Below, piece after piece: positions 5,531 through 39,934 of a stretch of 64,000 bases of DNA. Every line of letters begins with the position of its first letter. The first letter of the stretch is position 1. The notes beneath the pieces are model-generated. The model was given only the letters and a program-made list of their open reading frames with translations, searched no databases and was not told where the DNA came from. This DNA is from Eledone cirrhosa (taxonomy: Eukaryota): positions 16,926,001 through 16,990,000 of the forward strand of contig OZ024759.1 of NCBI GenBank assembly GCA_964016885.1. The letters are read 5' to 3'. The position numbers and the translations under genes were made by a program.

Positions 5531-5699
5531 GAAGACAGTTTGATTCGAACGTTCGATGCTTTCTTTACATACTTAAAGGTTCTTGATACTTGGAACCTTG
5601 ATGGTTACTCCATTCTTGGACGACTGTTGGATTCGAACCCTTAATGACACTTTTGGACGAATGTTACATTGGTAATACTGTCTATACATTATTTTTTTT

Positions 5700-7400
5700 T
5701 TTTTGTCAAAATAAACTGAACACAATTCGTATATAATATGTAAACTTTATTCATTTTTGTCAAATAAACTGAACACGATTCGTATAAGATGTTCGACATT
5801 TTTTACGGCAACACAGCATATGACCTCGAAGGCTGGACATCTGTAAAAGGAAATAAAAAGAACATTAAACTTTATAAAATTCTTCAAATTTTGTTCTTTT
5901 ATTATATATACATTTAAAAAGAGGAAACCTTTTCCTACATCAAAGTTACGTAGATTAAAACCTAGGGTGTAATATTCACCATGACCTAAGACGACAGATC
6001 TCAAAAGGTTATTAATAATAACCAGAATTTACAACAATACACGAGGATATCATGAAGGGAACTAGAAATAATATTGTTGGATGGAAACTAAGAGTGTTGA
6101 AAAAAGAAACGAAAATTGTAAATGAAGTTTCTAACGAAAGAAACTAAGAGTATCAAAGAATGTAGCAAGAAGTATCTCATCCAACTGTCTTCCAAGAACG
6201 TAAAGAAAGTATCTAAGGTTCTAATCCAAGGTTTAAGGGGACACGTGTGCGAGAAATCAAGATTCATTGGGTGAATATTTCTTCGAAAGCATGTATACAG
6301 TGTCGAGATGGCTTAATTTAGTTTCTTAGAAGAGGTAACACTATTTGTGTGTGTATTTAGTTTTAAATTTCAAAGAAAGCCACAGAAAATAAAATATGAA
6401 CACAATAACCAAAGTGTGTATCTAATGAAATGTATGTTTTCTGAAGAGTAGAAACAAAATCTATATGAAACTAGTGATTTTGAAATGTCGAGAAAAATTC
6501 TATATGAAACGTATGTTTTCTGAAAAGTCGAAAAAGGAAATCTACATGAAATTGGTGTTTTGTGAAAGGTGTATATCTAATAGAATGTATGTATATAGAA
6601 AACAATATCCAAAATGTGAGCGTTATTGACATGAAGTGTATATATTAGTCCTAGTATAGAGAAAAGAAAACATTACATACCTCTCTACATGAAAGTAATA
6701 TCCAAAATGGTTCTCTTCCAAAGAAGAGTTTAAAAAAGGGGAGATAATTCTAATAAAATTTTGAGCAAAAATCGATTGTTCGCGAGGTCAGGGACAAGTA
6801 GCCAGCCTCCGAAATAGTCCCAGCTGCATAAGCCACGAAGACCTCATAACGATTTGAACTTCAGACACATAGAATGGTCACGCCATACATAGGTAGACGA
6901 CAAAGTCGGAACCGCGCCGCGCCGCAATTCTACTAAGTAAAATTAGTATACTTATAGGTAAAATTTTATTCATTTAAAAAAAAAAAAAAATATAGAAACG
7001 GAAAGGGGTGTAACACGTCTCAAAATATATTTAGTGTGTTATCTCACTCTTATTCCGTTTCTATATTTAAATTAATTTAGAATCTACTAGTATTTTGTAC
7101 ATATATGCAGAACAATTATTATGGAGATAAATATATGTACACATATGTGTGGGTTGTCTTATATATATACATAAGACAATTATTAACGCATTAATAATTG
7201 TCTTATGTATATACATAAGACAATTATTAGTGGTGTTGTGAAGATGGGGCTGTTGTACACATATACACAACAATTGTTATGGAGATAAATATATGTGTGG
7301 GTGTATATGTATATATGCCGAGGAGAGAGAAGAAGGGGGAGCACGTCAGCTCTGATAGAGAAGATCAGAAGTGTGGAGAGAGCGGTTGATAGGTCTAGGT
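5700..7400 (-). repeat. Diverged module copy, direct paralog of 13355-14650
   Basis: Shared blocks in the same order, including GC-rich 6770-6940 vs 14040-14185 and 7316-7402 vs 14562-14647. Confidence 0.85.
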
Positions 7401-8080
7401 GACACACTGATAGTACATATGAAGCAACTGTAAATGGCAATATGTGTCACATATCGGCCACCCGACGCACCTAGTTATGAAGGTAAGTTTGAGGATAGCC
7501 TCAGAAGGATGGAAGAAGTCCTTGACAAAGTCGACCAGGGTCTCAACATTCTGCTGCTGTGAGACTTTTAACCTACCTATGGCCACCTCCTCCCTGGAAT
7601 GACATCACTCGAACAGAGACAGATGGAGTCCATACTGGCCCTAAGACACAGGAACAAGCAGTACTCCTCCCAACAAGAGGCGAGAATGTTATGGAACTGA
7701 TTTACAGATAACACAATGCTCATCCGCAATGTAAAGGTTACACTAACGATTTTCTCGGACCATAACTTAGTAGAACTAATGACATGTGATCTGAGAGAGT
7801 CACATTTTCAATATGATTACAATACAAACCATGTGCCAGAGGAACAGACAAAATCTTATTCCCAGATCTCAAAACAGTTAAATGCACAACAGAAAAAACA
7901 ATAAGGAACCCTATCTGAAAAAGGCACTACTTGAAATTGAAATGACACTCAAACTTTTCCATGAGAAGGATGGGAGCAGAGAGAGAAGCCATAGAAAATA
8001 TTAAAACAAACCTTTAAATTTGCAAAAGAAACTGCCTTGGTACACTGTAAGATTGGGCCACTCTTCCATAAAAATGGTTC

Positions 8081-11000
8081 ATTCTTTTTATTGATAACGT
8101 ATGTAAATGACTCATTTCCTTTTACAGATGTCCAGCCTTCAAGGTCATATGCTGTGTTATTTGTCGTAACAAGTGAGAATGGCGAAGTTTCTGTAAATAA
8201 AAAAAGGTTACATTTTATATACAAATCATGTTCAGTTTATTTTGACAAAAATGAATAAAGAAATCAAGTAGAGGTTTACCAGTTGCTTCAAAAGGTAGAT
8301 GGCCTCCGTAGTACTTTTACCTGTCACAAATCCAAACTATAGAGGTATGTAATGTTTTCTTTGCCCTATACACATACATGTTATTAGATACATACTTTAT
8401 GTCAACAACTCTCACACTTTGGATCTTGTGTTCATGTGGCTTTCTGGCACATCGTCACTCACTCAACATGCTTTCTTTGAAATTAAAACATAATACACAT
8501 ACAAATAGTGTTAGCCCTTCTAAGAAACTAAACTAAACCATCTCGACACTATATACATACTTTCTAACTCAAATTTCTCTCTATAAACCTCATTCTGTAG
8601 ATCTTTCTTTAGAGACATACATATAAAACTATATACTCTCAACTAAGAAAAATATATAAACCTTCTTCTCTATACCTTTCCTTTTTTCTTCTAATAAACC
8701 TCTATACACAGCTACATTTTATTATCTTCTCTATTTCTTTCACACGTGTCCTCTTCTATGTAGAGAGAAACCTTTGTGAGAATCGAACTCACGATTGTAA
8801 AGTCCGACAACTTTACATAAATACTTTGCGCATTGATGTCCAATTATTTCGGCGCATGCGTACTTTAGTGAAAATTAAATGGCCGCATGAAGAACTACAT
8901 GTTTTACAAGGTGAATTAAAAAAACGTTAAAAACTTGGATTTTACTAATTTTACGGAGGTAAAGTAAAGCTTTATTTTATGTTGATCAATTTTATTGAAA
9001 CATTTTCTGTTTATTTCCCTCCATAATGTCAGAAATAATTATTTAAACATTAATTTAGTTTAGCCACATCTTACATTCTAATGTAATACAACACCCCTCT
9101 CATACATATTTCTTGCTCATACGAAATAGTGTATTTTGTTAATTATTATTTAAGCTGGTAAATAATATATTTCTATTTCCCTTCATGATATCCTCGTAAT
9201 TTGTAATCCGTGTTAACTAGATCGATATCGCTTTAACTTTTAACCTACAATCATTTATATTCTTAGTTTCTTTCGTTAAAAACTTCATTTACATTTTCAG
9301 TTTCTTATTTTCCCACCAACAATATTATGTAGACGATAGTTTTGTTTAAGCTACTGCCACATTTCTAGGTCATATGAAATAGAATTTAGCTTATTTTCTT
9401 TATTATTTAAATAATATATTTCTAGTTCCCTTCATGATATCCTGGTGTTTTGTTTTAAATTCGTTTTGGAGGACTTGCTCCTGTCACACATGATGTTGGT
9501 TGCTATATATTCTGGTTATTAATATTAACCAGAATCTTTTGAGATCTGTTGCCTTTGGTCAGGGTGAATATTACACCCGTCACGTTTTGTACCCATTTTT
9601 TTTTTTTAGATATCATGATCGTAATCAAAGATTAACTGTTGATTAATTTAGATATCATGATCGTATTCAAAGATTAACTGTTGGTCAGTGTTAACTAGAT
9701 CGATACCACTTTAACCCTTTACATTCTTAGTTTCTTCTCACGAAACTTTATTTACTTTCTTTGTTCCCTTTCAACACTTCATTTGCATTCTTAGTTTCTT
9801 TTTTCGTCATTGAAAACAACTAAGAATGTAGATGAAGTTTCTAAAGAATGAAATTTAATCGTAATCAGATCGATATTATTAACCAGATCGATACCGCTTT
9901 AACTTTTAATCTACGTAACAAGTAACCGTTTACAATCCTCTTTATGCATTTTATGTACATTCCTAGTTTCTTTCTTTATACACTTCATCTACCTTCTTAT
10001 TTCCTTTCTTTAAGAAACTTCATATAGATTCTTAGTTTCCTCTATTTAAATGTTTTTTTTATAATAAAAGACAAAATTGGATGAATTTTATAAAGTTTAC
10101 ATTCTTTTTATTGACAACGTCTGTAAATGACTTTTATTTCTTTTACAGATGTCCAATCATCGAGGTCATATGCTGTGTTGTTTGCCGTAACAAGTAGGAA
10201 TGTCGTAGTTTTTGTTAATAAAGAAAGTTTACATCTTATATACGAATTGTGTTCAGTTTATTTTGCTAAAAATGAATAAAGAAATCAAGAGTCTACAAGA
10301 AACTGAGTAAGACGCGCTATAAAGAACGTAAGTGTATATGAAGTTTCTAAATAAAGAAACTAAGAGGTAGATAAAGTTTCTTGAAAGAAACTAAGAATGA
10401 TGAAGTTACTAAATCAAGAAACTAAGAGGTAGATAAAGTTTCTTGAAAGAAACTGAGAATGATAAATTTTCTAAATAAAGAAACTAAGAATGCTTTTGAA
10501 ATTGTCGAAAAGAAAATCTATGAAACGGTACCCTCTTTTTAAAATTTTTTTATTCAAGGGAGGTAACTCTGTAATATTTTGAAACGAATTACCTCCCTTT
10601 GAAACACCTTCGTCACCGTCGTTACCACCGTCGGCACCTTCGTAACCGTCGTCACCATTACCGCCGCCACCTGGTGGCGGAGGAAAAGATACCGACGAAG
10701 ACGGCGGTGCACCTTCGTCTTCGTCGGTATCTTTTCCTCCGCCACCAGGTGGCGGCGGTAAAGATACCGACGAAGACGGCGGTGCACCTTCGTCGTCGTC
10801 GGTATCTTTTCCTCCGCCACCAGGTGGCGGCGGTAAAGATACCGACGAAGACGGCGGTGCACCTTCGTCGTCGTCGGTATCTTTTCCTCCGCCACCAGGT
10901 GGCGGCGGTAATGGTGACGACGGTTACGAAGGTGCCGACGGTGGTAACGACGGTGACGAAGGTGTTTCAAAGGGAGGTAATTCGTTTCAAAATATTACAG

Positions 11001-13539
11001 AGTTACCTCCCTTGAATAAAAAAAATTTTAAAAAGGGTACCGTTTCATAGATTTTTTTTTCGACAATTTCAAAAGCATTCTTAGTTTCTTTATTTAGAAA
11101 ATTTATCATTCTCAGTTTCTTTCAAGAAACTTTATCTACCTCTTAGTTTCTTTATTTAGAAACTTCATCATTCTTAGTTTCTTTCAAGAAACTTTATCTA
11201 CCTCTTAGTTTCTCTATTTAGAAACTTCATATACACTTACGTTCTTTATAGCGCGTCTTACTCAGTTTCTTGTAGACTCTTGATTTCTTTATTCATTTTT
11301 GGCAAAATAAACTGAACACAATTCGTATATAAGATGTAAACTTTCTTTATTAACAAAAACTACGACATTCCTACTTGTTACGGCAAACAACACAGCATAT
11401 GACCTCGATGATTGGACATCTGTAAAAGAAATAAAAGTCATTTACAGACGTTGTCAATAAAAAGAATGTTAAACTTTATAAAATTCATCCAATTTTGTCT
11501 TTTATTATAAAAAACATTTAAATAGAGGAAACTAAGAATCTATATGAAGTTTCTTAAAGAAAGGAAATAAGAAGGTAGATGAAGTGTATAAAGAAAGAAA
11601 CTAGGAATGTACATAAAATGCATAAAGAGGATTGTAAACGGTTACTTGTTACGTAGATTAAAAGTTAAAGCGGTATCGATCTGGTTAATAATATCGATCT
11701 GATTACGATTAAATTTCTTTCTTTAGAAACTTCATCTACATTCTTAGTTGTTTTCAATGACGAAAAAAGAAACTAAGAAAGTAAATGAAGTGTTGAAAGG
11801 GAACAAAGAAAGTAAATGAAGTGTTGAAAGGGAACAAAGAAAGTAAATAAAGTTTCGTGAGAAGAAACTAAGAATGTAAAGGGTCAAAGTGATATCGATC
11901 TAGTTAACACTGACCGACAGTTAATCTTTGATTACGATCATGATATCTAAATTAATCAACAGTTAATCTTTGATTACGATCATGATATCTAAAAAAAAAA
12001 AATGGGTACAAAACTTAAGTTTTATAGCCAAAACGTGACGGGTGTAATATTCACCCTGACCAAAGACAACAGATCTCAAAAGATTCTGGTTAATATTAAT
12101 AACCAGAATATATAGCAACCAACATCATGTGTGACAGGAGCAAGTCCTCCAAAACGAATTTACAACAAAACACGAGGATATCATGAAGGGAACTAGAAAT
12201 ATATTATTTAAATAATAAAGAAAATAAGCTAAATTCTATTTTATATGACCTAGAAATGTGGCAGTAGCTTAAACAAAACTATCGTCTACATAATATTGTT
12301 GGTGGGAAAATAAGAAACTGAAAATGTAAATGAATTTTCTAACGAAAGAAACTAAGAATATAAATGAATGTAGGTTAAAAGTTAAAGCGATATCGATCTA
12401 GTTAACACGGATTACAAAATACGAGGATATCATGAAGGGAAATAGAAATATATTATTTACCAGTTTACATAATAATTAACAAAATACACTATTTCGTATG
12501 AGCAAGAAATATGTATGAGGGGGGTGTTCTATTACATTAGAATGTAAGATGTGACTAAACTAAACTAATGTTTAAATAATTATTTCTGACATTATGGAGG
12601 GAAATAAACAGAAAATGTTTCAATAAAACTGATCAACATAAAATAAAGCTTTAGTTTACCTCCGTAAAATTAGTAAAATCCAAGTTTTTAACGTTTTTTT
12701 AATTCACGTTGTAAAACATGTAGTTCTTCATGCGGCCATTTAATTTTCACTAAAGTACGCATGCGCCGAAATAATTGGACATCAATGGGCAAAGTATTTA
12801 TGTAAAGTTGTCGGACTTTACAATCGTGAGTTCGATTCTCACAAAGGTTTCTCTCTACATAGAAGAGGACACGTGTGAAAGATATAGAGAAGATAATAAA
12901 ATGTAGCTGTGTATAGAGGTTTATTAGAAGAAAAAAGGAAAGGTATAGAGAAGAAGGTTTATATATTTTTCTTAGTTGAGAGTATATAGTTTTATATGTA
13001 TGTCTCTAAAGAAAGATCTACAGAATGAGGTTTATAGAGAGAAATTTGAGTTAGAAAGTATGTCTATAGTGTCGAGATGGTTTAGTTTAGTTTCTTAGAA
13101 GGGCTAACACTATTTGTATGTGTATTATGTTTTAATTTCAAAGAAAGCATGTTGAGTGAGTGACGATGTGCCAGAAAGCCACATGAACACAAGATCCAAA
13201 GTGTGAGAGTTGTTGACATAAAGTATGCATCTAATAACATGTATGTGTATAGGGCAAAGAAAACATTACATACCTCTATAGTTTGGATTTGTGACAGGTA
13301 AAAGTACTACGGAGGCCATCTACCTTTTGAGGCAACTGGTAAACCTCTACTTGATTTCTTTATTCATTTTTGTCAAAATAAACTGAACATGATTTGTATA
13401 TAAAATGTAACCTTTTTTTATTTACAGAAACTTCGCCGTTCCCACGTGTTACGACAAATAACACAGCATATGACCTTGAAGGCTGGACATCTGTAAAAGG
13501 AAATGAATGTCATTTACATACGTTATCAATAAAAAGAAT
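8081..13539. repeat. ~5.5 kb palindrome (long inverted repeat) centred near 10785
   Basis: Arms are reverse complements (e.g. 8224<->13394, 10554<->11015) with scattered substitutions and small indels. Confidence 0.95.
10600..10965. repeat. GC-rich nested-hairpin core, 3 x 75-bp units
   Basis: Unit starts at 10686, 10761, 10836; each is AAGATACCGACGAAGACG..CGTC(T/G)TCGTCGGTATCTT plus a CCGCCACC-w-GGTGGCGG hairpin. Confidence 0.95.
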
Positions 13540-15009
13540 ATTAAACTGTATTAAATTCTTTCTATTTTGTCTTTTATTATATATAGATTTAAATAGAGGA
13601 AACAAGAAAACCTTTCCTACATCGAGGGAGGTAACTAAACTAAGAATGTAAATGAAGTTTAATGTAAATCAAGTTTCTAAAGAATGAAACTAAGAATGGA
13701 AATTAAGTGTTGAAAACGAACAAAAAAAGTAAATGAAGTTTCGTAAGAAGAATCTAAATAGTTCTATGCTACGTAGGTTAAAATGATATCGATCTAGTTA
13801 ATACTGACCAACAGTTAATCTTTGATTACGCTGATGATATCTAAAAAAAAAATTTCGTTCAAAACTAGACGGGTATAATATTAATCTTGATCAAAGATGA
13901 CAGATCCAAAAGATTCTGGTTAATATTAAGATGTGCCAGAAAGCCACATAAAAAGCCTCTTCACATAAACACAATATCCAAAATACATGTGAGGTTTATT
14001 GACATAAACTGTGTATCTAATAAAATGTATGTGTATGATTGTTCGCGAGGTCCGGGACGCAGGCCAGCAAGTAGCCAGCCTGCAAATACTTCCAGCTGCA
14101 TAAGCCACGAAGACCTCGTAACGATTCGAACTTCAGACACATAGAATGGTCACGCCATACATAGACAACGAAGTCCGAACCGCTACTTATAGGTAAAACT
14201 TTATTCATTAAAAAAAAAAAAAAAAAAAAAAAATAGAAACGGCAAGGGAGGTAACACGTCTCAAAATATATTTCGTGTGTTGTCGCACATTCCGTTTCTA
14301 TATTTAAATTGTAGAATCTACAAGTATTTTGTACATATATACAGAACAATTATTACGGAGATAAATATATGTACACATATGTGTGAGTGTGTGTATATAT
14401 ATATATATATATATGTTTCAAGGAAGATGATAAGCTACAGGAGAGGTTCACAGTAGAAGTGGGGAACAGGTTCAGTGCTCAGACGAGGGAGAGATTGGAG
14501 GGACTAAGGAGAGTGTGATGGGGAGGTACCGGTACTTTACCAATGTAAGTGAGACCCTGGTGCCGAGGAGAGAGAAGAAGAGGAAGCACGTCAGCTCTGA
14601 TAAAGAAGATCAGAAGTGTGGAGAGAGCGGTTGACAGGTCTAGGTGTAAGGAGAGCTGGATGATCATAGGGAGGAAGAGAAGGGGTTCGAGTCAGATCCA
14701 GGGAACAGGACCCGAGGATAGGAAGAGGAAATGGCTGGACCATTTTAGGGCCCTCCGCAGCTGTATAAGGAACTGGATATTGAGACACGACCCTTCACCA
14801 GAGAGGAGCTTCCGAGACCCAAAAAGAAAATCAAAGAGGGCTAGGCTCATGAGTGGCATCAGAAGTGTGATTTTGGTTAGAGCATTGTGCTTGCAATCGA
14901 AAGGTTGTGAGTTGGATTCTCGGACCGGGTGATGCTTGTGTCCTTGAACAAGACACTTTATTTCACGTTGCTCTAATTTACTCAGCTGTAGAAGGGGGAG
15001 GGGGCAGCT

Positions 15010-18690: not shown

Positions 18691-21199
18691 TTTGATGTAA
18701 GATGAATCAGTAGCTTATTTGAAATTTAATTTGACAGGAGGCGCGGGCTGAAAAAAGATAAGGAAACCCTGGTGAAGATTAAGTTTCTTCAGAAAAAAAC
18801 AAAGAATGTTTTTGAAAGTGTCGAAAAAAAAATCTATCTGATATAATGTATTTGAAAAATCTAAATCAAAATTACGTTTTCAGAAAAAAAAATCAAGGGA
18901 ATATCCAAGGGAAGATAATTCACATTTTTTTAGCAAAAAGTCTGCGAATTAATTTCAAGGTGGTCCCAGGTCCACTTAGCAATCGCACACCACCACGTAG
19001 TCACATAGACTGGGAGACCGAGATGCAGCTCGCGCATCGCCTCGAAGGCCTCAATTCTACTGATTAGAATACTCCTACTTATGGGTACTTTTCACATTTT
19101 TTTGTTAAAAAAAAAAATAAATAAAATAAATAAACGAAACGAAGGTGGGTAAGAAATTTAATAGCGCCTTATGACGCTCTTTGAATTATTTTTTCATTAA
19201 ATTATGAAATTATATTCATTTAGAACATCGTCTTGAGACCAAGGCACCAACAATTTTCTTGCGAAAATCAGTATTCCGAAAGAATTACCTCCATTCATTT
19301 CGTTTATATATTTTTTTTCAATGGACAATAAACTTACCTCCGTATAGACGACAGTCCAGCTACATTAATGACGTGCTTCTTTCGCCCTCTAAGCTTATGA
19401 CCAGGGCTTAGTTGACCGTAGGAGATTCTATGGAACAAATACATCCTAAACAAAACTAACGTTTAAATAACTGTTTCTGACATTATGGAGGGCGGGCTTT
19501 GCGTTGTGTTCTTGAGCAAGACACTTTATTTAACGTTGCTCCAAAAATGAGTTGGACAACATCAGTGCCGTGGAGGTATGCCATGTCGACGGGAACTAGA
19601 AATTTACCAACTAAAATAATAAAAACAATACGCTATTTCGTACGACCAATATGTGGGAGGTGTTGTGTTACATTAGAAGGTAAGGTGTGGCAGAAGCTAA
19701 ACAAAAGTAACATTTAAATAATTATTTCTGACATTAGAGAAATAAACAGAAAATGTTTTAATAAAACTGATCAACGTAAAGCTTTACTTTACCTCCGTAA
19801 AATTAGTAAAATCCAAGTTTTTAACGTTTTTATTTTTTTAATTCACGTTGATGTTTTTTAGTTTAAGTGGGTGAAGGTGTGCCAGAAAGCCACAGTAAAG
19901 AAAATACCTCACATAAACACAATATAAAAAATGTGAGAGTTATTGACATAATGTGTGTATCTCATAAAATGTATGTGTATAGAGAGATGGTGCTAGTATA
20001 CAGCAAAGAAAACATTATCCAAAATGAGAAAAGTTCCATGAAGAGGAAGTAACTCTAAATAAAGGGAGATAACTCTAATCAAATTTAGAATAAGTAGCAC
20101 TGCTTCTTTCACCCTCTAACCTTGCATTGTCCATGAGATGTATACGTACTCAAACTGTTTTTTCAGACTCTACCCTGGTATTGACCAGGGTTTAGCTGGC
20201 CCTAGCAGAGCCTACAAGCAAACCATGCCATAAAGGCATTATTTTCACCCTCTAACCTGGCTTTGACGAGGAGATCCTATGGTAAGTATACACACTAAAA
20301 CTGCTTCTTTCGCCCTCTAATCTGGTATCGACTATGGTTTATCTAGCCTTAGGAGAGCCTGTAAGTACTTTGGCCCCCTAACCTGGCATTCCAATACTAA
20401 TTTGAGGCAGAGTAACATCAAGCTTTCAAGGTTTAGGGAGATAGCAATGAATAGTTCACATGCATGTTCTTGCTATATGAAAGAGATGAAGGTGAGATAC
20501 ACAAAACACTACCAAAGGAGGCAAGAAAGCAAGCATGGATTGAGAATTGCCTCATTCTTGTAGTCACAAAAGGATCAACAATTTCAATGGACTCCTTAAC
20601 AATACACACATATATATGTGATCAAAGTAAGACACAGTCAGACTTGTCTCATAGTGTGGACGACCCGTCTGACCCATGCAAGCATGGAAAATAAGACGTT
20701 TGACATTTATTAGTGTCCTATATGTTAGTGAAGGATGGGTACACTGGTTCACAACAACACCCAGATGGTGGCATGCTAAACATAATGAGGAGTGGGACAC
20801 TTGGAGAAGAGATGGGCACTGTCATGATGGAGACAGTAAAACATAGAATAGCACTCCTACAGCTAGCTGCACCAGCTATGGGAAACTGATTAATGTATAT
20901 TAGGGATCCCAAGGTCTGATTTTATCACCTCATCCCACCTGCACCTTTTTATACATTTGTCACCCCTCATACGCATCACAGTCTCCTCTCTTGCACACTG
21001 CATCTGATCCCTCTTATGCCCAGTTTCTCTCTCAGTTCATTAATAATGTAATATTTAAAAATGTGGTGGGAAGCAAATGAACCTACCTTGCGTCTCTACT
21101 TGATTCCAGAACGAATGTCCAATGCTCCGACATCCATGTGACTTACGTCCAACTCAGAATTACAAGCCTCTCTTGCTCACGTCTGCAATAGGCCAAATC

Positions 21200-26818: not shown

Positions 26819-26988
26819 TTATGATTCACTGACAGGAATACTTTCATGTACATATGATAATTTACCAGTAGAAAAATCAACAACTGTTTGGCCTTCTCCA
26901 CGCAGCACCCACTTTGTTGTTAGTAACCCTTCAACCCCAACAGGGCCCCGTGCATGGATACGACTTGTACTAATTCCTACTTCAGCAC
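26819..26988 (-). CDS. ALDH18A1: P5CS coding exon 14 (terminal)
   Basis: [27 protein letters not shown]...stop TAA; 170 nt. Confidence 0.97.
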
Positions 26989-27387
26989 CTGAAAGAATAA
27001 AAATAACATACAATATTTTCTAGAATATAAGACACAAACTTATTTTGAAGAACAAATTTCATGGAAAAAAATAAATGTGAATATTCAAGATTCCTATGTG
27101 GAAGGAAGTTGCAGTAAAGGAAGACAAAGGAAAACCTGGATTGAGGTGGTTAGAGCTGATCTTAAACCCTGAATGTTATAGAAAAGATGGATGTGTGCAT
27201 CTATGGGAAAGCATCGATAAGATGAGAGAGAAACTGCATATAACAGAAATAAGATGTAGTGTGCAAGAGAGAAGACTGTGTTGGTATGGTCATGATTGTT
27301 GAGTAAAGAACTGGGTATAAGAAGAATCAGATGTAGTGTACAGGAGAGAAGACTGTGTTAGTATCAATATGTGATGTGTATGGATGT

Positions 27388-28075
27388 TGACCAATGTCAC
27401 ATCAGACCAGTGTTACAGTAGACCAGTGTTACAGTAGACCAATGTCACATCAGACCAGTGTTACATCAGACCAGTGTTACAGTAGACCAGTGTCACATCA
27501 GACCAGTGTTACAGTAGACCAGTGTTACAGTAGACCAGTGTCACATCAGACCAGTGTCACATCAGACCAGTGTTACAGTAGACCAGTGTCACATCAGACC
27601 AGTGTTACATCAGACCAGTGTTACAGTAGACCAGTGTCACATCAGACCAGTGTTACAGTAGACCAATGTCACATCAGACCAGTGTTACAGTAGACCAATG
27701 TCACATCAGACCAGTGTCACATCAGACCAGTGTTACAGTAGGCCAATGTCACATCAGACCAGTGTTACAGTAGATAAATGTCACATCAGACCAGTGTTAC
27801 AGTAGACCAATGTCACATCAGACCAGTGTTACAGTAGACCAATGTCACATCAGACCAGTATTACAGTAGACCAGTGTCACATCAGACCAGTGTTACAGTA
27901 GACCAATGTCACATCAGACCAGTGTTACAGTAGATAAATGTCACATCAGACCAGTGTTACAGTACACCAATGTCACATCAGACCAATGTCGCATCAGACC
28001 AGTGTTACAGTAGACCAGTGTCACATCAGACCAGTGTTACAGTAGACCAGTGTCACATCAGACCAATGTCACACC
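27388..28075. repeat. 16-bp minisatellite with variant units, ~43 copies
   Basis: GACCAGTGTTACAGTA / GACCA(A/G)TGTCACATCA alternation. Confidence 0.95.
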
Positions 28076-28110
28076 AAAACAATAAATCATAAGGAGGTAT
28101 GGTTACTTAC

Positions 28111-28206
28111 CTAGTCCAAACCTGTAGCCATCTGAGAAACGTGTGCTGATATTGTGGAAAACACAAGCACTGTCGACTGTTTTCAGAAATCTTTCAGCAA
28201 CAGCAG
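28111..28206 (-). CDS. ALDH18A1: P5CS coding exon 13
   Basis: [29 protein letters not shown]; 96 nt. Confidence 0.96.
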
Positions 28207-28244
28207 CTGTAGGATATGGAAAGAACAGGAGATTAGAACATTTA

Positions 28245-28575
28245 CATCATTTTACGTCCACTTTTCCCTGCTTGCAAGGGTGGGACGGGAACTGATTCTG
28301 GCTTGATTTCTAAAGCTGGATGCCCTTCCTAACACCAACCTCATTTACAATGAGTGCTGGGTGCTTTTTTGCCGTGGCACCTCCACGACCACTTTGCAGT
28401 GGAATGATAGGGACCCCAGTCCCTATCATCTCATTTCTACAGCTGAGTAAACTGGAGCAATGTGAAATAAAGTGTCTTGCTCAAGGAAACAACACATCAC
28501 CCGGTCTGAGAATTGAACTCACAACCTTTCGATTGCAAGCCCAATGCTCTAACCACTAAGCAATGTGCCTCCATC
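28245..28575 (-). mobile_element. tRNA-derived CORE-type SINE
   Basis: A/B boxes, CCTTGAGCAAGACACTT core, GAT tail. Confidence 0.85.
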
Positions 28576-28760
28576 ACAATATAAAATGATAGCGCTGGGG
28601 ACACGACAAAAGACACCCAGTCCACTCTGTAATGTGGTAGGGCTGGGGCCTCGACAAAAGACACCCAGTCCACTCTGTAATGTGGTAGGGCTTGGGCCAG
28701 ACTTGACATGGACGACCTGACTAACCCAAGCAAGCATGGAAAATGGAGGTTAAATGGTGA

Positions 28761-28795
<35 letters not shown>

Positions 28796-28872
28796 TATAC
28801 TTACATCTGTGTGTATATATGTCTATCTGTGTACATGTATATACTTATATATATCTATCTGTGTGTATATAT

Positions 28873-29260
28873 ATGGCTTAGTGGTTAGAGTATTGGCCTT
28901 GCAATCGAAAGGTTGTGAGTTCAATTCTCTGACTGGGTGATGTGTTGTTTCCTTGAGCAAGACACTTTATTTCACATTGCTCCAGTTTACTCAGCTGTAG
29001 AAATGAGATGATAGGGACTGGGGTCCCTATCATCATTCCACTGCAAAGTGGTCGTGGAGGTGCCACGGCAAAAAAGCACCCAGCCCACACTGTAATGTGG
29101 ACGTGAAGGTGCTACGGATAAAAAAGCACCCAGCACTCACTGTAAATGAGGTTGGTGTTAGGAAGGGCATCCATCTGTAGAAATCAAGACAGAATCAGTT
29201 CCCGTCCCACCCTTGCAAGCAGAGAAAAGCGGACGTAAAATGATGATGATGATGATGATA
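28873..29260 (+). mobile_element. tRNA-derived CORE-type SINE
   Basis: TGGCTTAGTGG A box, GAGTTCAATTC B box, (GAT)n tail. Confidence 0.88.
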
Positions 29261-29434
29261 TATGTCTATGAATAATTGTATAAATATCATCATCATCACC
29301 GTTCTATGTCCATTTTTCCATGCTAGCATGGGTTAGACGAGTTGTCCTGTTGTTGGCAATGCTAGGTCAGGTGACCATGTCTTAGTCATACAGAACTGAT
29401 TTTGACTTGGTTTCAACAGCAGGATGCCAACCTA

Positions 29435-31095
29435 TTTACAGTGAGTACTGGGTACTTTTTAATGTGTCACCTACATGACCACTTTACAGTGTGGACTGGG
29501 TACTTTTTAATGTGACACCTACATGACCACTTTACAGTGAGTACTGGGTACTTTTTAATGTGTCACCTACATGACCACTTTACAGTGAGTACTGGGTACT
29601 TTTTAATGTGTCACCTACATGACCACTTTACAGTGTGGACTGGGTACTTTTTAATGTGTCGCCTACATGACCACTTTACAGTGTGGACTGGGTACTTTTT
29701 AATGTGTCACCTACATGACCATTTTACAGTGTGGACTGGGTACTTTTTAATGTGTCTCCTACATGACCACTTTACAGTGAGTACTGGGTACTTTTTAATG
29801 TGTCACCTACATGACCCCTTTACAGTGTGGACTGGGTACTTTTGAATGTGTCACCTACATGACCACTTTACAGTGTGGACTGGGTACTTTTTAATGTGTC
29901 ACCTACATGACCACTTTACAGTGAGTACTGGGTACTTTTTAATGTGTCACCTACATGACCCCTTTACAGTGTGGACTGGGTACTTTTTAATGTGTCACCT
30001 ACATGACCACTTTACAGTGAGTACTGGGTACTTTTTAATGTGTCGCCTACATGACCCCTTTACAGTGTGGACTGGGTACTTTTTAATGTGTCACCTACAT
30101 GACCCCTTTACAGTGTGGACTGGGTACTTTTTAATGTGTCGCCTACATGACCCCTTTACAGTGTGGACTGGGTACTTTTTAATGTGTCACCTACATGACC
30201 CCTTTACAGTGTGGACTGGGTACTTTTTAATGTGTCACCTACATGACCCCTTTACAGTGTGGACTGGGTACTTTTTAATGTGTCACCTACATGACCACTT
30301 TACAGTGTGGACTGGGTACTTTTAAATGTGTCACCTACATGACCCCTTTACAGTGTGGACTGGGTACTTTTTAATGTGTCACCTACATGACCCCTTTACA
30401 GTGTGGACTGGGTACTTTTTAATGTGTCACCTACATGACCACTTTACAGTGTGGACTGGGTACTTTTTAATGTGTCACCTACATGACCCCTTTACAGTGT
30501 GGACTGGGTACTTTTTAATGTGTCACCTACATGACCCCTTTACAGTGTGGACTGGGTACTTTTTAATGTGTCACCTACATGACCCCTTTACAGTGTGGAC
30601 TGGGTACTTTTTAATGTGTCACCTACATGACCCCTTTACAGTGTGGACTGGGTACTTTTTAATGTGTCACCTACATGACCCCTTTACAGTGTGGACTGGG
30701 TACTTTTTAATGTGTCACCTACATGACCCCTTTACAGTGTGGACTGGGTACTTTTTAATGTGTCACCTACATGACCCCTTTACAGTGTGGACTGGGTACT
30801 TTTTAATGTGTCACCTACATGACCCCTTTACAGTGTGGACTGGGTACTTTTTAATGTGTCACCTACATGACCCCTTTACAGTGTGGACTGGGTACTTTTT
30901 AATGTGTCACCTACATGACCACTTTACAGTGTGGACTGGGTACTTTTTAATGTGTCACCTACATGACCACTTTACAGTGTGGACTGGGTACTTTTTAATG
31001 TGTCACCTACATGACCCCTTTACAGTGTGGACTGGGTACTTTTAATGTGTCACCTACATGACCCCTTTACAGTGTGGACTGGGTACTTTTTTGCT
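29435..31095. repeat. 48-bp minisatellite, ~34 copies, amplified from a SINE-body segment
   Basis: 16-aa periodic ORFs; unit resembles TTTACAGTGTGGACTGGG-G-TTTTT in neighbouring SINE copies. Confidence 0.95.
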
Positions 31096-31454
31096 GTGCC
31101 ACCATCACGACCAGTTTACAGTGTGGGCTGGGGGCTTCACTGGATGTATACTTTGGTCTGTCCTCATGGGAGATGTATAGGAGGGTGGAGTGTGGCATAC
31201 TATATATATGCTTCAGCTTCGGCCTGTGCCCGTGGAAAGTTGGGTCTTCTGTATTATTGCATAATGCCAGAGATCTTTGTCCTTTGTCATCGCCTTTGAG
31301 AGGTGCAATTGGGCAAGGTGGGCTTTTATCACCTCATCCCAAGTCTTCCTATGTCTCCCTACTCCAAGGCTTCCATTGACTTTGAGCGCTCTTATGCCTA
31401 GTTTCTCTCTCAGTTCGTTTATGCTTTGCCGTCCACTTATATTATTATTACACA

Positions 31455-31645
31455 GGGCAGTGGATTGGCAGTATCGGTAGAGAGTCGGACGCCATGCTTT
31501 GCAGCATAGGAGTTACGTCCCTTTACGGTCTGAGTTCAAATCCTGCCGAGGTTAACTTTGCCTTTCATCCTTATGGGGTCGATAAAATAAAGTACCAGTA
31601 ATGCACTGGGTAATTGCTGGCCTTGTGCCAAAAGTAGAAACAAAT
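31455..31645 (+). mobile_element. MetaSINE-like SINE (minus copies at 44630-44820, 46435-46622, 49765-49948; older copies at 41990-42600, 55040-55110, 58020-58180)
   Basis: GAGTTCAAATC B box followed by GCCTTTCATCCTT..GGGGTCGATAAAATAAAGTACCAG. Confidence 0.8.
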
Positions 31646-31789
31646 ATTATTACACATCCATTGGAGCATGCAAGCTTCATTTCTTTCCAATCTACTCAAG
31701 TCTTCTGCATACAGCGCCCAGGTCTCACTACCATATATAAATGGACATATATTTTTAAAAAATCCTAAAAATATCCAAATTCAGCTTAC

Positions 31790-31976
31790 CGTTTTCAGTG
31801 AGGATGGTCTCTGTGTGAGCACTGCCATACTTGTGAATGTGAGAAATGGCATCATCAACATCGTCTACAATTTCAACAGCACATTCTAAACAGCTATACT
31901 CCATATTCATACGAACTGCTGGAGAAGGCCCAAATTTCAGTAAGCTTGTTAAACGAGGTCCAGCATGAACTTTCAC
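31790..31976 (-). CDS. ALDH18A1: P5CS coding exon 12
   Basis: VKVHAGP...EY..LEC...AISHIHKYGSAHTETILTEN; 187 nt. Confidence 0.97.
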
Positions 31977-32953
31977 CTGTCAGAAAAGTTAAGAAAATGA
32001 TCACTAATAAGATACAAAGGAGAAATGTTTAACCCTTTAACATTTACTATTGTATTTTCACAGTAAAGGCTTTACTTCAGATAATATCGAATCTATGAGA
32101 TTTTGATATTATTCACTTTGAGAACAAATGTAGGTATGAGCAGCCAGTTGTGGCTGGTTTGAACAGAAAGCGGTGAGAGTTCTGGCCGGATATGGCTGGT
32201 TTAAATGCTAAAGGGTGAAACATTAATACACCCTATTTCAATTATTTTCTGTGGAATTTTGAAAGGTTTACTAAATTTATTAATTATTTCTTTACTAAAA
32301 TACTAACTTCACATATGGTTCTTATACTAAATTACGTTGGATGATTTTAATTTAAATCCTTTGTCACTACATTTCAAATGTAATATAATTTGTGGAATAT
32401 TTTGAGAGATTTACTATCTTTATTATTTCATTATAAGATAGTAACTTAACCTATGGTTCTTATATAAAATTTTGTTGGAAGATTTTAATTTAAATAGGAA
32501 CTCTTTCAAAGGGATGATTCTGTTTCCTAGAACCAGAGCTGGTATCAAAAGGGTTAAAAAAACCCTGTACATTTACACTACACATCATAAACAACTGTCT
32601 ACACTTACAGTTTATATCATAACCATTTGTCTACACTTACAGTTTATATCATAACTATTTCTATAAACTTACATTTTATATATTAGCCATTTGACTACAA
32701 TTACACTTTACATCATAACCACTTATATACATTTACACATTATATCATAACCATTTGACTACACTTACACCATCACCACTTATATACATTTACACATTAT
32801 ATCATAACCATTTGACTACACTTACATTTTACATCATAACCACTTATATACATTTACACATTATATCATAACCATTTGACTACACTTACATTTTACATCA
32901 TAACCACTTATATACATTTACACATTATATCATAACCATTTGACTACACTTAC

Positions 32954-33075
32954 ATTTTCCAACTTAAACATTTCAAATATTTTATCAAACACGTCAGTTC
33001 TGAAGAGTTGCCGATGTATAAGGAGGGTTTCCATTGCATTACAAGCAGCTGGGTAATCACATTTGGAGTCTTTCA
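32954..33075 (-). CDS. ALDH18A1: P5CS coding exon 11 (catalytic Cys)
   Basis: [20 protein letters not shown]; 122 nt. Confidence 0.97.
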
Positions 33076-33094
33076 CTGTAAATAGAGAAAGTAT

Positions 33095-34025
33095 ATATAT
33101 ATGAATAGCAGGTTGTATGATGCCTGCATACGAACAGCAATGTTGCATGGTAGTGAGACCTGGGCATTGTGTGCAGAAGATATACGCAGACTAGAGAGGA
33201 ACGAAGCTTGCATGCTCCGCTGGATGTGTAATAGTAACATACGTGAACGGCAAAGCATAAGCGAACTAAGGAAAAAATTAGAAATAAGAGGGATCAGATG
33301 TTGTTTACTCGAGAGAAGGCTACGTTGGTATGGTCACGTGATGCGCATGAAAGACGACAGCTGTATAACAAAGTGCAGGGCAATAAAGATAGACGGTAGC
33401 TACGGAGTAGGCAGACCCAGAAAAACCTGGGACGAGCTGATAAATTCTGACCTCACACACTTACACCTCTCCAAGACAATGTCACTGGACCGAGACCTTT
33501 GGCGGTACTCAGTAATAGAGAAGACCCGCCTTACCTAAATACAAAGTAAAACCTACTACAGTCAGTAGGCATCTCTAACAAAATACACCCCCGTCCCACC
33601 ACCCCCACCCCATCCACACCGCCCCTTTCAATGTAAAGTTATGTTGGTGCCACAACATCCAGGCCGAAACAAATGAGATCGTGTAGACACAGTCCACGCT
33701 GTAATGTGGTCGTGTAGGCAACACGGTAAAAACCTCCCAGCCCCACACTGTAAATGTGGTTGGTGTTAGGAAGGGCATCCAACTGTAGAAAACCCGCCAG
33801 ACAGTCCACGCTGTAATGTGGTCGTGTAGGCAACACGGTAAAAACCTCCCAGCCCCACACTGTAAATGTGGTTGGTGTTAGGAAGGGCATCCAGCTGTAG
33901 AAAACCCGCCAGACAGTCCTATGCGAGCAAGACAATCACTCTTGCCTCAAGTGGGACTACCCCCGTCCAAACCCATGCAAGCGTAGAACACGGACGTTAA
34001 ACGTTGATGATGATGATGATGATGA
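33095..34025 (+). mobile_element. 5'-truncated RTE-like LINE 3' end with (GAT)n tail
   Basis: MLHGSETW...RRLRWYGHVMR...GRPRKTW; near-identical copy at 43010-43785, shorter copy at 52515-53055. Confidence 0.88.
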
Positions 34026-34567
34026 TATGTTATATCATCATCATCATCATTGTAAATAGAGAAGGTATTATATATGTTGTATCAACATCGTCACTATAAA
34101 TAAAGATCATCATCATCATCTTCACATATATATATGTTATATCAGCATCATCATCTTCTTCGCCCACTTATTCCTGAAAGGGTCATGGGGGCAGAGTCCT
34201 CAAACACTACCTGCAGTGGGTCCTGTCAGAAGCAACCATCTCCAACTGATCCAGCTGGATCCCCAAACATGACCAGCCAATGGATGTTATCCAACCATCT
34301 TGCTCAGGGTCTACCCCTGGCTCTCCTGCCAGTTTTTTTACCCATAAAATCTGTCCAGTGATTCTCTCCTGAGACATTCTAACCACATGCCAAGAGTATC
34401 AGAGCTGTCATCTCTCAATTCGGAGAAGTACCTGGAGTGACTCTCTAAAATCAAAATGGCGCTCCAGCACAGTCGAGGTTTAATAACTGAAACCAGTAAA
34501 AAACAATAAAATAATATATGAATATGTACAGAAAATATAAAACTTTATAGAAGAACATCTCTCTTAC

Positions 34568-34763
34568 CAATTTCAATGACTTTATTGGGGTCAGCATCTT
34601 TATCTATGTAGACATGGCATACACCTTCACTGTGTCCCAACACAGGAATACCTTTGCTCATTTCCTGAATCTTGGACACCAATTCATTGGATCCTCTTGG
34701 AATAACGAGGTCAATATATTCATCTAGTGACATCAAATCTTCAATGTCTTCACGTCGACTCAC
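34568..34763 (-). CDS. ALDH18A1: P5CS coding exon 10
   Basis: IDLVIPRGS...[16 protein letters not shown]; 196 nt. Confidence 0.97.
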
Positions 34764-34974
34764 CTGAAATTATACATTAATTCATAATTCCCTGTCCTCT
34801 AATACACACCACCACATATACTTGCAGGTCTTGAATAATCGTCCACCCCCTCCGTTAATTAATTTTTCTAACCCCCAAAACTTATTATCCTTTTAGCATA
34901 TACACTACTCTATATATACTATTGTATTTTTGCAGTAAAGGCTTTACTTTAAATAATCTCTCACATGAAACGCT

Positions 34975-36080
34975 ACTATAAGAGGTTAATGAATGTGGAG
35001 AATGAATGGGAGGAAGGGAGACTACTCTCCACTAACTCAACAGAGGGACTAGTTATCGAAATTGACAATTATGGGGTCAAAAGCCACAGGTCCATGCTGA
35101 AAGCATCTAGGGAAATAAGTGTTGAATAAGTCAATCGGATAATTCAGGACGGGGCCATACCCAATGACTAGTGCAACAGTATAATCATTAATTGCTACAA
35201 GAAAAAAGGTGATGCTCTAGAAAGGAGCAACTATAGGGTCATAAAACTGATGGATCAAGAGCACAACAAATTAGGGAATGAGTCAATGTAGATGAGATGC
35301 CAAGGAAGAGCACCACAGATGCCCTCTTTTTAGTGAGACAACTACAAGAGACGATCTTAGCTAAGAGTAAGCCTCTATATCTAGCTTTTGTTCATCTAGA
35401 GAAAGCCTTTGACAGAATACTCCAATTGATTATCTGATGGTTCTTAAGGAAATTAGGTGTAGAGGAGTGACTTGTAAGAGCAGTACAAGTCATGTACAGT
35501 GAAGCTGTCAGTAAAGTTAGAATAGGAAGTGAGTTTAGTGAGGAATTCAAGGTACATGTAGGAGTGCATGGGGGTTTAGTCCTTAGCCCACTCCTGTTTA
35601 TCATAGTCATCCAGGCAATAAGAGTAGCTTAAGATTGGTTGCCCATGGGAACTTCTGTATGCCAATGATCTGGTACTCATAGTTAAATGTGAGGAAGAAC
35701 TAGAGAATAAATGCTGGCTGTGGAAAAAGAACTTAAAATCAAATGAGTAAATTTAGCAAACCCCAAATGTTAATAAGTAGGAAAGAAGATCGAGAACCAA
35801 TCTCATCAGAGAAGTGACCTTGCTTGAAATGTAGAGAAAGAGTAGGCATAAACTCTATATGGTGTACACAATGCAAATCTTGGGTACACAAGAGTGAGCG
35901 AAGTGGAATAACAGGCAAACTAACAGGAAAGGAATACTTTGTATGCAGATGTTCAGGGTCAATTGATAGTAAGAGTGCCAATAATAAAATAAATATAAAC
36001 CTTTTCCAATCCCAGGAAAAGCCATAGAAGTCGTTGATTGTTTCTGCTATCTAGGTGATATAATTAGCAGTGGAGGACAG
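34975..36080 (+). mobile_element. Degraded RTE-like LINE RT fragment
   Basis: Broken STTDA, LEKAFDR, GVH-G--LSPLLF, ELLYAND motifs and Cys-rich segment. Confidence 0.8.
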
Positions 36081-36198
36081 TAAGCCTGATGCTCTAACCA
36101 CGATACTAATGTTTAAATAACATATTACTTATTGTAGTCATAACTACAATACACAATCACAGAACAGCATATAAAAATAAATAATGACATATACTTAC

Positions 36199-36336
36199 TA
36201 GAGAGACTGCTTCTTTCGGTACATAAGGCTCAAGGGCATCTTGGACGAGTTCTTGTAAAAGTTTGTTACTGTTAGAAGCTTCCTTCCCACCTTTTAGCAA
36301 CAAACCATTGGCACTGGCAATGGCAAGAGCTGCAAC
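36199..36336 (-). CDS. ALDH18A1: P5CS coding exon 9
   Basis: [24 protein letters not shown]...; 138 nt; AG/GT bounded. Confidence 0.96.
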
Positions 36337-36847
36337 CTAATAGAGATGAGGTATTGTCATTGAGATAAGTGGTGATGGCAGCGGTGGTGGTAGGAAGAGG
36401 CGGAGAACAACACCACCAACACCAAGCACAACAGTAACAATAACACTAAGAAGAATAACAAATGTTTTACGATGACGCTTCCCGAAATACGCCAAAACTA
36501 CACCTGATGTACCCCTTCCATACACATGCACACATGTGTGTATCATGACTCGTGCACTGTTCATTTTACTGATGTTTGTGCATTGCCCTATGTACTGTAC
36601 ATGCACTTTTTTGATGAGTTGTGGTGCACCTGGGCACTGTGCACAATATTTCATTATTGTTATTGTTATTATATCATGTCTCGTACACTGTTCATTTTCC
36701 TGACATTTGTACATTATTCTATGTACTATACATGCACCTTTGATGAGTTATAGTGCACCTGAGCACTGTACACAATAATTTCATTATTATTATTATGATG
36801 TACTACATGTACAGGAATAATCTTTATCTTGTTATGTACTATATGTA

Positions 36848-36881
<34 letters not shown>

Positions 36882-36984
36882 CAGTGTATATATATATATA
36901 TATATAGTGTATATATATATATATATATATACACACATGGTGCATGTATTGGACAGGTTCTCTCTCAGCCCATATCTAACATAT

Positions 36985-37423
36985 ATATAACAAAGGAAGT
37001 GTGGTAAGGAACCAGGTGGACCATAACGTACCAGAGTACTCAATACTTAGGGTAGTAGAGTGGGTAATAGGAAAAGAGTCAGGACCCCCTTACTAGGATG
37101 GTTAGAACTGCGGTGCATATAGTGTAGGTTCTCATTAGGTTTCCTATATGGGTAGTACAAATTATTCTCCAGGTTGAGTGTAGGGAAGTCTGTAGGGTGA
37201 TTTTGAAACCTAAATCCCAGAAGAATTTAATGAGGGGTTTACGGACCCGGTCCGTGCTACTGGGGTTGTACCCTGTGAGAGTAAGAAGCCTGTCATCTCG
37301 GTACAGACCACTGCCGAACGGCGGAAACTTTTTAATGAGTTTATGGAATATGTATAGTCCTATAAGGTCGGTCACCTTAGCTGAGTCAGTCGAGCCCATA
37401 TGGGGTCCTGACTCTTTTCCTAT
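36985..37423 (-). mobile_element. Penelope-like element fragment
   Basis: MGSTDSAKVTDLIGLYI...GLYRDD RT motif; inverted terminal segment; ~45-bp flanking direct repeat; related 3' end at 45740-45945. Confidence 0.75.
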
Positions 37424-37559
37424 ATATATATATACACACATGCTGCATGTGTTGGACAGGTTCTCTCTCAGCACAGCCTCACTCCACAGACTTCCTTCCC
37501 CATGTTTCACTTCCATGCAACATCACATTTCACACACTTGCATCATCTAATTGCCTTTT

Positions 37560-39760: not shown

Positions 39761-39791
39761 TTACATATATGTATGTAGGCATGTATACTGC

Positions 39792-39828
<37 letters not shown>

Positions 39829-39865
39829 TGCATATGTATGTGTATGAATGAATGCACATGCATGG

Positions 39866-39934
<69 letters not shown>

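What the first reader, a model, noticed from the sequence alone, without database searches (positions are those of the whole stretch)
8081..13539. 5.5-kb palindrome placing two gene-like units convergently around a hairpin core
Seen: ~2.5-2.7 kb arms that are near-exact reverse complements with essentially no unique spacer. They differ by scattered substitutions, a ~30-bp duplication (11790-11850) and a ~19-bp insertion (~12012-12030). Known: spacerless kb-scale palindromes are unstable, and when transcribed they can yield hairpin-RNA/endo-siRNA and A-to-I editing substrates. Inference: this is either a long-dsRNA locus (each arm carries promoter-like, splice-like and poly(A)-like signals pointing to the centre), a Foldback-type transposon, or the integrated junction of a hairpin-ended replicon.
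Basis: partly seen in the sequence, partly recalled or inferred. Interest (0 to 1): 0.8.

Follow-up and report, generated by a model that had tools for sequence, protein, structure and literature searches.

The report
Octopus palindrome with self-made central minisatellite
In an octopus genome, 2.6 kb of non-coding repeat DNA sits next to its own mirror copy around a GC-rich hairpin; it is likely an ordinary local fold-back duplication that has since decayed and grown extra hairpin copies at its centre, not a pair of genes.

Summary
The palindrome is in the assembly at 8081-13539. Its arms differ at 39 of 2576 aligned positions and by a few indels. The host is an octopod; the site lies 13 kb past the stop codon of ALDH18A1. 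The true axis is GGTG|CACC at 10709/10710, not the midpoint. Skipping two extra 75-bp units, 163 of 165 inner positions pair. Changes fall equally on both arms (14:14), which argues against a read artefact. The arms are not gene-like: splice, TATA and poly(A) motifs are at shuffle level, and no Pfam family fits. They are mosaics of older local repeat modules (70-89% alike), with many relatives in a second animal. There is no target-site duplication and no element end: the right arm runs on into older homologous sequence, and the left arm is cut off inside another repeat. Best reading (0.6): a local inverted duplication seeded by a short imperfect inverted repeat, followed by slippage that built the central 75-bp array. 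A decayed Foldback-type element is the main rival (0.2). No read spanning both arms and no RNA data were available.

The parts
8081..10657 (.). Left arm; mirror of 10912-13539; inferred to be the derived copy; cut off at 8080/8081
10912..13539 (.). Right arm; runs on into older homologous sequence, so 13539 is not an element end
   Evidence: 11279-11705 matches 13350-13800 at 75%
10658..10761 (.). Original central hairpin: 46-bp perfect stem (10658-10703 / 10716-10761) around the 12-nt spacer GCGGTGCACCTT; axis 10709/10710; each stem half holds a small hairpin of its own
10664..10911 (+). 75-bp tandem array, 3.3 copies; two units in excess of the mirror; units 2 and 3 share one T>G change; all three spacers in the same orientation
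10604..10657 (.). GC-rich degenerate CACC-word array leading into the axis (mirror 10912-10965); core GC 0.61, CpG observed/expected 1.53
10550..10603 (.). Small imperfect stem-loop inside the arm (mirror 10966-11019)
   Evidence: seen in the sequence; module G
10319..10489 (.). AT-rich 31/62-bp sub-repeat array (mirror 11076-11230); summed depth in the second animal is much higher here
10070..10289 (.). Module S, an older duplicate (86%) of the arm's outer end 8081-8268; holds the exon-like block
7316..8080 (+). Left flank: fragment of a high-copy interspersed repeat that ends at the palindrome; LINE-endonuclease-like by eye only (motifs recalled, not confirmed by searches)
   Evidence: depth 450-39,000; no hit
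13540..14646 (+). Right flank: older copy of arm modules S, T and W, then module X; 13946-14646 is a direct repeat (71%) of 6670-7401
5670..7100 (+). Older rearranged copy of the arm modules (copy A), same orientation as the right arm, 68-89% alike
18760..20089 (+). Third older, fragmented copy of the arm modules (78-86% alike in the matched pieces)
26825..61788 (-). Context only: ALDH18A1 (P5C synthase), coding exons covering residues 1-794; the palindrome lies 13.3 kb beyond its stop codon

Best explanation
This 5.5-kb non-coding quasi-palindrome is built from copies of a low-to-middle-copy repeat family and likely arose on the spot by fold-back or template-switch copying at a short imperfect inverted repeat, and slippage likely added two 75-bp hairpin units at the centre afterwards. 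Steps. (1) Shown: the GC-rich CACC-word array turns round at GGTG|CACC, and a 2x2 mismatch is the only asymmetry of the original centre. (2) Inferred: a strand end folded back or switched template there and copied 2.6 kb or more, and the new left arm was joined or later trimmed at 8080/8081. (3) Shown as geometry, inferred as event: mirroring turned a small hairpin inside the arm into a near-direct repeat 75 bp away, and misalignment between the two copies gave the extra units in two steps. (4) Shown: both arms have since changed equally and evenly. (5) Inferred: the GC-rich, mismatched centre lowers cruciform extrusion enough for it to persist. It likely has no selected function.
For: Centre: 163 of 165 positions pair once two units are skipped, against 114 of 127 about the midpoint. 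The slippage seeds 10664-10690 and 10739-10765 differ at 3 of 27 letters. Units 2 and 3 share one change. Ends: no duplication above 2 nt at symmetric ends; the right arm continues in homology and the left does not. Decay: of 39 substitutions, 14 are derived on each arm, 4 are unclear and 7 have no paralogue to compare; 6, 9, 10, 7 and 7 fall in five bins along the arm; transitions/transversions 19/20. Second animal (S1): the core is present (summed depth 513 and 486 in two runs), and one contig in each run joins left-flank position 7138 to arm position 8573, the same turn-round arrangement in deleted form, which the window holds nowhere. Mechanism in print: inverted repeats of 5-9 bp with 3-12-bp spacers seed large palindromes in yeast mutants (PMC7999016); ODIRA junctions lie at 2-14-bp repeats (PMC10766183); broken central symmetry stabilised a mouse palindrome 25-fold (PMC8701086).
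Against: No read or contig spanning both arms was seen; only the left flank, left arm and first hairpin were laid, and no strand-change joint is among the 15 of 98 joints shown. At the 4 arm-distinguishing sites among the 40 of 375 rows shown (8910, 8989, 9279, 9552), 84-100% of S1 depth carries the right-arm letter, so S1 does not confirm the window's left-arm alleles. S1 also holds near-identical arm pieces in other arrangements (joints 8813>9600, 8813>9660), so the family was recently duplicated or mobile. If single-copy depth in S1 is about 8 rather than about 50, the core itself has some ten copies. The second junction of an ODIRA-type event was not identified. One polarity call (9666) is contradicted by an S1 contig.
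Confidence: 0.6

Rival explanations
1. It is a decayed non-autonomous Foldback-type DNA transposon whose normal form is palindromic, whose left end was lost by deletion, and whose older copies lie beside it through local hopping.
For: The arms are modular, with AT-rich 31-34-bp sub-repeats. Three older rearranged copies lie within 4-20 kb, and module X stands inverted at 4482-4743 / 6755-7013 around copy A. 1968 and 1898 contig pieces at 85-100% were laid from S1 over the whole stretch, high-copy flank included. Tetris shows the same 'modular, rearranged forms' pattern (PMC4079207).
Against: No target-site duplication and no defined end. No middle domain and no transposase among 82 ORFs. No arm module has a hit between 20.1 and 64 kb. 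The core has low depth relative to most arm modules, so most relatives seem to lack it.
Confidence: 0.2
2. It is an assembly artefact: a fold-back read, or two haplotypes joined head-to-head through the hairpin core.
For: Fold-back artefacts occur in long reads (PMC12870357, abstract). Arm divergence (1.5%) is close to the window-to-S1 distance implied by 51-55% of 31-mers shared. Left-arm alleles are nearly absent in S1 at 4 shown sites.
Against: Differences are 39 substitutions and only four 1-2-nt indels, split 14:14 between the arms. Beyond the arms the flanks show no colinear allele-level inverted match; the best inverted pieces are 105 nt at 93-94%. The least repeated arm bins fit two arms at a depth of about 50 (ratio 48-51) better than one arm (156-206), if the 44-52 seen for neighbouring junctions is single-locus depth. 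The 7138>8573 joint is present in two S1 runs.
Confidence: 0.08
3. It is a selected long double-stranded RNA locus (hairpin RNA, or an A-to-I editing substrate) transcribed across the axis.
For: A read-through transcript would pair almost perfectly over 2.6 kb (geometry). The core is CpG-rich (observed/expected 1.53) and the arm 0.90, against 0.37 in the ALDH18A1 body, which fits unmethylated DNA.
Against: Gene signals are at shuffle level. There is no strand bias for G-U-compatible changes (9 vs 10) and no arm homogenisation near the axis. All 35 Rfam hits are below the gathering score. No dedicated endo-siRNA pathway was found in molluscs, O. bimaculoides among the species sampled (PMC12479628, passages).
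Confidence: 0.07
4. It is the integrated dimer junction of a hairpin-ended replicon (parvovirus-like or linear-plasmid-like).
For: A GC-rich nested hairpin at the axis of a long palindrome resembles such junctions (recalled knowledge, not tested against sequences).
Against: All three spacer copies have one orientation, with no flop form. No Rep, NS1 or polymerase family was found in 82 ORFs. The 29-nt core pattern has 0 hits in viral and metagenome contigs. The arms are made of host repeat modules with older neighbours.
Confidence: 0.04

Closest known systems
Large palindromes and inverted duplications seeded by short inverted repeats (fold-back priming; ODIRA template switching in yeast)
   Same: Long near-identical arms meet at a short imperfect inverted repeat; 12-nt spacer, within the 3-12 bp range quoted in PMC7999016.
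   Different: Only 2.6-kb arms, no amplified gene, no second inverted junction found; old enough for 1.5% arm divergence; the centre was altered by tandem gain.
Mouse 15.4-kb transgene palindrome (Jasin and Lewis laboratories, as reviewed in PMC8701086)
   Same: A spacerless palindrome rearranges at its centre and loses symmetry.
   Different: There 93% of 118 events were central deletions; here the centre gained two 75-bp units. A paper on repeat expansion at that palindrome (Zhou, Akgun, Jasin 2001) was seen only as a title in the reference list.
Foldback elements (Tetris of Drosophila virilis; FB and Galileo, recalled)
   Same: Long non-coding inverted arms built of modules and internal tandem sub-repeats; many rearranged copies.
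   Different: No target-site duplication, no defined termini, no middle domain, no transposase; the arm ends are breakpoints inside modules.
Drosophila hairpin-RNA (endo-siRNA) loci
   Same: Inverted-repeat geometry able to give a long RNA duplex.
   Different: No gene signals above chance, no wobble bias, no transcript evidence; molluscs are reported to lack the pathway (PMC12479628).

Membership tests
Short-inverted-repeat-seeded inverted duplication | Arms meet at a short imperfect inverted repeat or a small spacer | tested here: met
   46-bp perfect stem around a 12-nt spacer with an 8-bp inner palindrome; 163 of 165 positions pair
Short-inverted-repeat-seeded inverted duplication | One arm keeps its ancestral flank; the other ends at a new junction without target-site duplication | tested here: met
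Short-inverted-repeat-seeded inverted duplication | An unduplicated ancestral allele exists in other animals or sister species | tested here: inconclusive
   S1 contigs are short and lack the shown left-arm alleles, but also hold a flank-to-arm joint; no genome held
ODIRA inverted triplication | Two inverted junctions flanking an origin-bearing segment | tested here: not met
   Only one young inverted junction in the window; origins not testable
Foldback transposon | Long modular inverted arms with internal tandem sub-repeats | tested here: met
Foldback transposon | 8-10-bp target-site duplication at defined termini | tested here: not met
   At most 2 nt at symmetric ends within 12 nt of 8081/13539; an end lost by deletion is not excluded
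Foldback transposon | Dispersed copies with the same ends, and a transposase partner | not testable with these tools
   No genome held; relatives seen only as short contigs; no transposase in 82 ORFs
Hairpin-RNA / endo-siRNA locus | Transcript across the axis with phased ~21-nt RNAs | not testable with these tools
   No RNA run was offered
Hairpin-RNA / endo-siRNA locus | Gene signals or wobble-biased divergence on one strand | tested here: not met
Hairpin-ended replicon junction | Replication gene in the arms; flip and flop forms of the terminal hairpin | tested here: not met

The most novel reading that the evidence does not exclude
The palindrome is the youngest intact-centred member of an undescribed octopod family of non-autonomous fold-back elements that carry a nested GC-rich hairpin core, copy themselves by hairpin-primed strand switching and seed new minisatellites from their own axis; any read-through transcript would be a 2.6-kb editing substrate.
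Probability: 0.12. Interest if true: 0.6.

Novelty: new member of a known kind. Interest (0 to 1): 0.24.

Why it matters
Modest. It is a natural example of a spacerless kilobase palindrome that has lasted long enough to diverge by 1.5%. Its centre records how mirroring turns a small hairpin into a direct repeat that then expands into a minisatellite, breaking symmetry by gain instead of by the usual deletion. It offers a simple PCR-free population test of palindrome stability in a mollusc. It does not point to a new gene, RNA class or virus.

Tried and rejected
No whole genome is held, so there is no genome-wide copy count. Run search on 7400-10760: 7 runs listed, 3 hold 51-55% of words (one sample), 1 holds 5%, 3 are RAD-seq runs added by species label; no RNA holder listed. 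X4 (kind unknown, small share) and X5 (RAD-seq) have zero depth on the core; this is not used as evidence of absence. Logan depth is not a copy number. Two readings remain: single-locus depth about 50, from junction contigs at 44-52 that match window neighbours, or about 8, from long diverged pieces at 4-17. Rfam on 3000-21500: 35 hits, all below the gathering score, mostly generic miRNA hairpins. ARAGORN: 0 genes. Pfam on 82 ORFs (78 of 62 aa or more in 1-26800 after dropping the mirror arm and two tandem arrays, plus 4 shorter ones): 3 had hits; two are low-complexity or tandem artefacts and one is a single C2H2 finger. Attempts to confirm the left-flank repeat as a LINE failed: no homologue, no Pfam on six read-through frames, and two spurious repeat-protein hits. 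The core pattern is absent from viral and metagenome contigs. The first collapse test had a coordinate slip; its mismatch list is void and was redone. Alignment of the X modules gave no clean terminus. Our earlier findings held nothing for this genome or sequence; one search returned only prokaryotic and phage cases that did not bear on this. Literature searches on octopus palindromes (7 papers), foldback elements in molluscs (5 papers) and cephalopod Helentrons (1 paper) listed nothing on this locus or family by title or abstract start; the library is open-access only.
Full report
Observation. Self-BLAST of the window finds one long self-inverted hit, 8081-13539, 96.0% over 5516 columns. The arms differ at 39 of 2576 aligned columns and by indels of 2, 20, 31, 2, 1 and 1 nt. 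The centre is a 75-bp tandem array of 3.3 copies (10664-10911), and the 391-nt core folds 32 standard deviations better than 100 shuffles.

Context. An exon at 41.3-41.5 kb is 93% identical to Octopus bimaculoides P5C synthase. tblastn places the coding exons of ALDH18A1 on the minus strand from 61788 to 26825. The host is therefore an octopod, and the palindrome lies 13.3 kb beyond that stop codon. No whole genome is held.

The centre. The only perfect stem of 12 bp or more in 10560-11010 is 46 bp, 10658-10703 / 10716-10761, around the spacer GCGGTGCACCTT. When two 75-bp units are skipped, 163 of 165 positions from 10545 to 10709 pair, and the two exceptions are the 2x2 mismatch beside GGTG|CACC. 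About the geometric midpoint 13 of 127 positions do not pair. The original palindrome therefore had its axis at 10709/10710. The axis is where a degenerate GC-rich CACC-word array turns round; an older turn lies at 10668-10676. Mirroring made that small hairpin a near-direct repeat 75 bp away (3 differences in 27 letters), and the extra units start and end inside it. Units 2 and 3 share a T>G change that unit 1 lacks, which implies gain, mutation, gain (inference). All three spacers face the same way, as slippage predicts and hairpin transfer does not (flip/flop expectation recalled).

The ends. Within 12 nt of the arm ends, symmetric flanks share at most 2 nt. The outer ends fall inside module S. 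The right arm continues past 13539 as the inner S copy does, while the left arm switches abruptly to other sequence. That left flank is a high-copy repeat (summed depth 450-39,000 in S1). Its translation looks by eye like a LINE endonuclease cut off before the reverse transcriptase, but the motifs are recalled and three searches did not confirm it. The simplest reading is that the right arm is the original and 8080/8081 is a rearrangement junction.

What the arms are. They are strings of AT-rich modules with 31-34-bp sub-repeats. Older copies at about 68-89% lie at 5670-7100, 13350-14330 and 18760-20089, and no module has a hit beyond 20.1 kb. The first 20 kb hold many further direct and inverted duplicates. 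TATA, poly(A), donor and acceptor motifs on the inward strand do not exceed 500 shuffles (P = 0.60, 0.09, 0.11, 0.35). Of 82 ORFs scanned against Pfam, no arm ORF had a family; one core frame gave three sub-threshold low-complexity hits. The exon-like block in S is well kept in five copies, but copy A has lost its donor and has a stop. All 35 Rfam hits are below threshold.

Decay. Using the older copies as outgroup, 14 substitutions are derived on the right arm, 14 on the left, 4 are unclear and 7 have no outgroup. They are spread evenly (6, 9, 10, 7, 7 per bin), with 19 transitions and 20 transversions. G-U-compatible changes number 9 for a plus-strand transcript and 10 for a minus-strand one. 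Two of the 39 are CpG transitions. This is the pattern of neutral divergence after one event, with no sign of selection for an RNA duplex or of conversion near the axis.

Other animals. Three runs of one sample (S1) hold 51-55% of the 31-mers of 7400-10760, and no RNA holder was listed. I laid four of the seven listed runs on 6700-10760, one arm only. X1 and X2 gave 1968 and 1898 pieces, most at 90-95%, the high-copy flank included. S1 differs from the window in the flank pieces too, so it is probably another animal. For the reading: the core has depth 513 and 486. Junctions that match copy A and the right flank have depth 44-52. A simulation from the window's own unitigs gives a floor of 48-51 per copy in two arm bins if both arms are present, against 156-206 if only one is, and 77 for the core. 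One contig per run joins 7138 to 8573 at depth 25 (29 letters on the short side), an arrangement the window lacks. Against it: no piece spans the stretch, and none of the 15 of 98 joints shown changes strand. At the four arm-distinguishing sites among the 40 of 375 rows shown, 84-100% of depth has the right-arm letter. One contig contradicts my polarity call at 9666. S1 holds further rearranged near-identical pieces. Long diverged pieces have depth of only 4-17, so single-copy depth could be about 8 and the whole neighbourhood multi-copy. The tool warns that summed depth is no copy number.

Mechanism and rivals. Fold-back priming at inverted repeats of 5-9 bp with 3-12-bp spacers yields large palindromes in yeast mutants (PMC7999016, passages). 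ODIRA junctions lie at 2-14-bp interrupted repeats and suffer secondary deletions (PMC10766183, passages). A 15.4-kb mouse palindrome was stabilised 25-fold by loss of central symmetry, mostly by deletion (PMC8701086, passages and its section on palindromes). The octopus centre fits the first two and differs from the third in gaining sequence. That a GC-rich (0.61), mismatched centre resists extrusion is my inference from general knowledge. Foldback elements such as Tetris have modular arms and 8-10-bp target duplications (PMC4079207, passages); the first feature is met, the second is not, and a lost left end cannot be excluded (0.2). An artefact is unlikely but not excluded without spanning reads (0.08; PMC12870357, abstract only). 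An endo-siRNA role is weakened by a survey that found no such pathway in molluscs (PMC12479628, passages); incidental A-to-I editing of any read-through transcript remains possible and untested (0.07 for a selected role). A hairpin-ended replicon has no support (0.04). No supplementary files were read.

Verdict. A real feature of the assembly and probably of the genome, and a new member of a known kind. Searches listed no description of this locus or family. Interest 0.24.

Noticed in passing
window 56579-56923 and 62324-62668: A 345-nt repeat pair, 98% complementary, 5.4 kb apart, brackets the first four coding exons of ALDH18A1; if both copies lie in the pre-mRNA it is a better candidate A-to-I substrate than the palindrome.
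   Followed up: no
window 1-20100: Dense mosaic of local direct and inverted duplications (for example 189-1261 / 1902-2968 at 95%; 151-375 / 18468-18686 inverted at 88%); arm modules were not found beyond 20.1 kb. It looks like a rearrangement hot spot.
   Followed up: partly
window 4844-4979: Two tandem 66-bp AT-rich quasi-palindromic units sit at the inner end of copy A, the same design as the 75-bp core but unrelated in sequence; module X stands inverted on either side (4482-4743 / 6755-7013). Possibly an older decayed palindrome.
   Followed up: partly
window 15029-16016: 81-bp tandem array (12.2 copies) whose unit has dispersed inverted relatives at 1679-1899 and 3276-3845: a minisatellite grown from a local repeat module.
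   Followed up: no
window 7154-7223: 70-nt near-perfect AT-rich hairpin at the end of module X; only sub-threshold miRNA-like Rfam scores.
   Followed up: no
window 16480-16716, minus strand: Single C2H2 zinc-finger match (E 2.9e-05, just under the Pfam cut-off), next to what looks like a LINE remnant.
   Followed up: no
window 40007-41089, plus strand: 360-aa ORF that reads like a mariner transposase (by eye, recalled motifs) in an ALDH18A1 intron.
   Followed up: no
window 12010-12034: The 20-nt difference between the arms lies between two CAAAAC copies and holds a 14-nt palindrome; an S1 contig carries the long form, so it is probably a deletion in the left arm.
   Followed up: partly
window 26825-61788 versus 1-14900: CpG observed/expected is 0.37 in the ALDH18A1 body and 0.71-0.90 in the duplicated region outside the core, consistent with gene-body methylation and an unmethylated repeat cluster.
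   Followed up: partly
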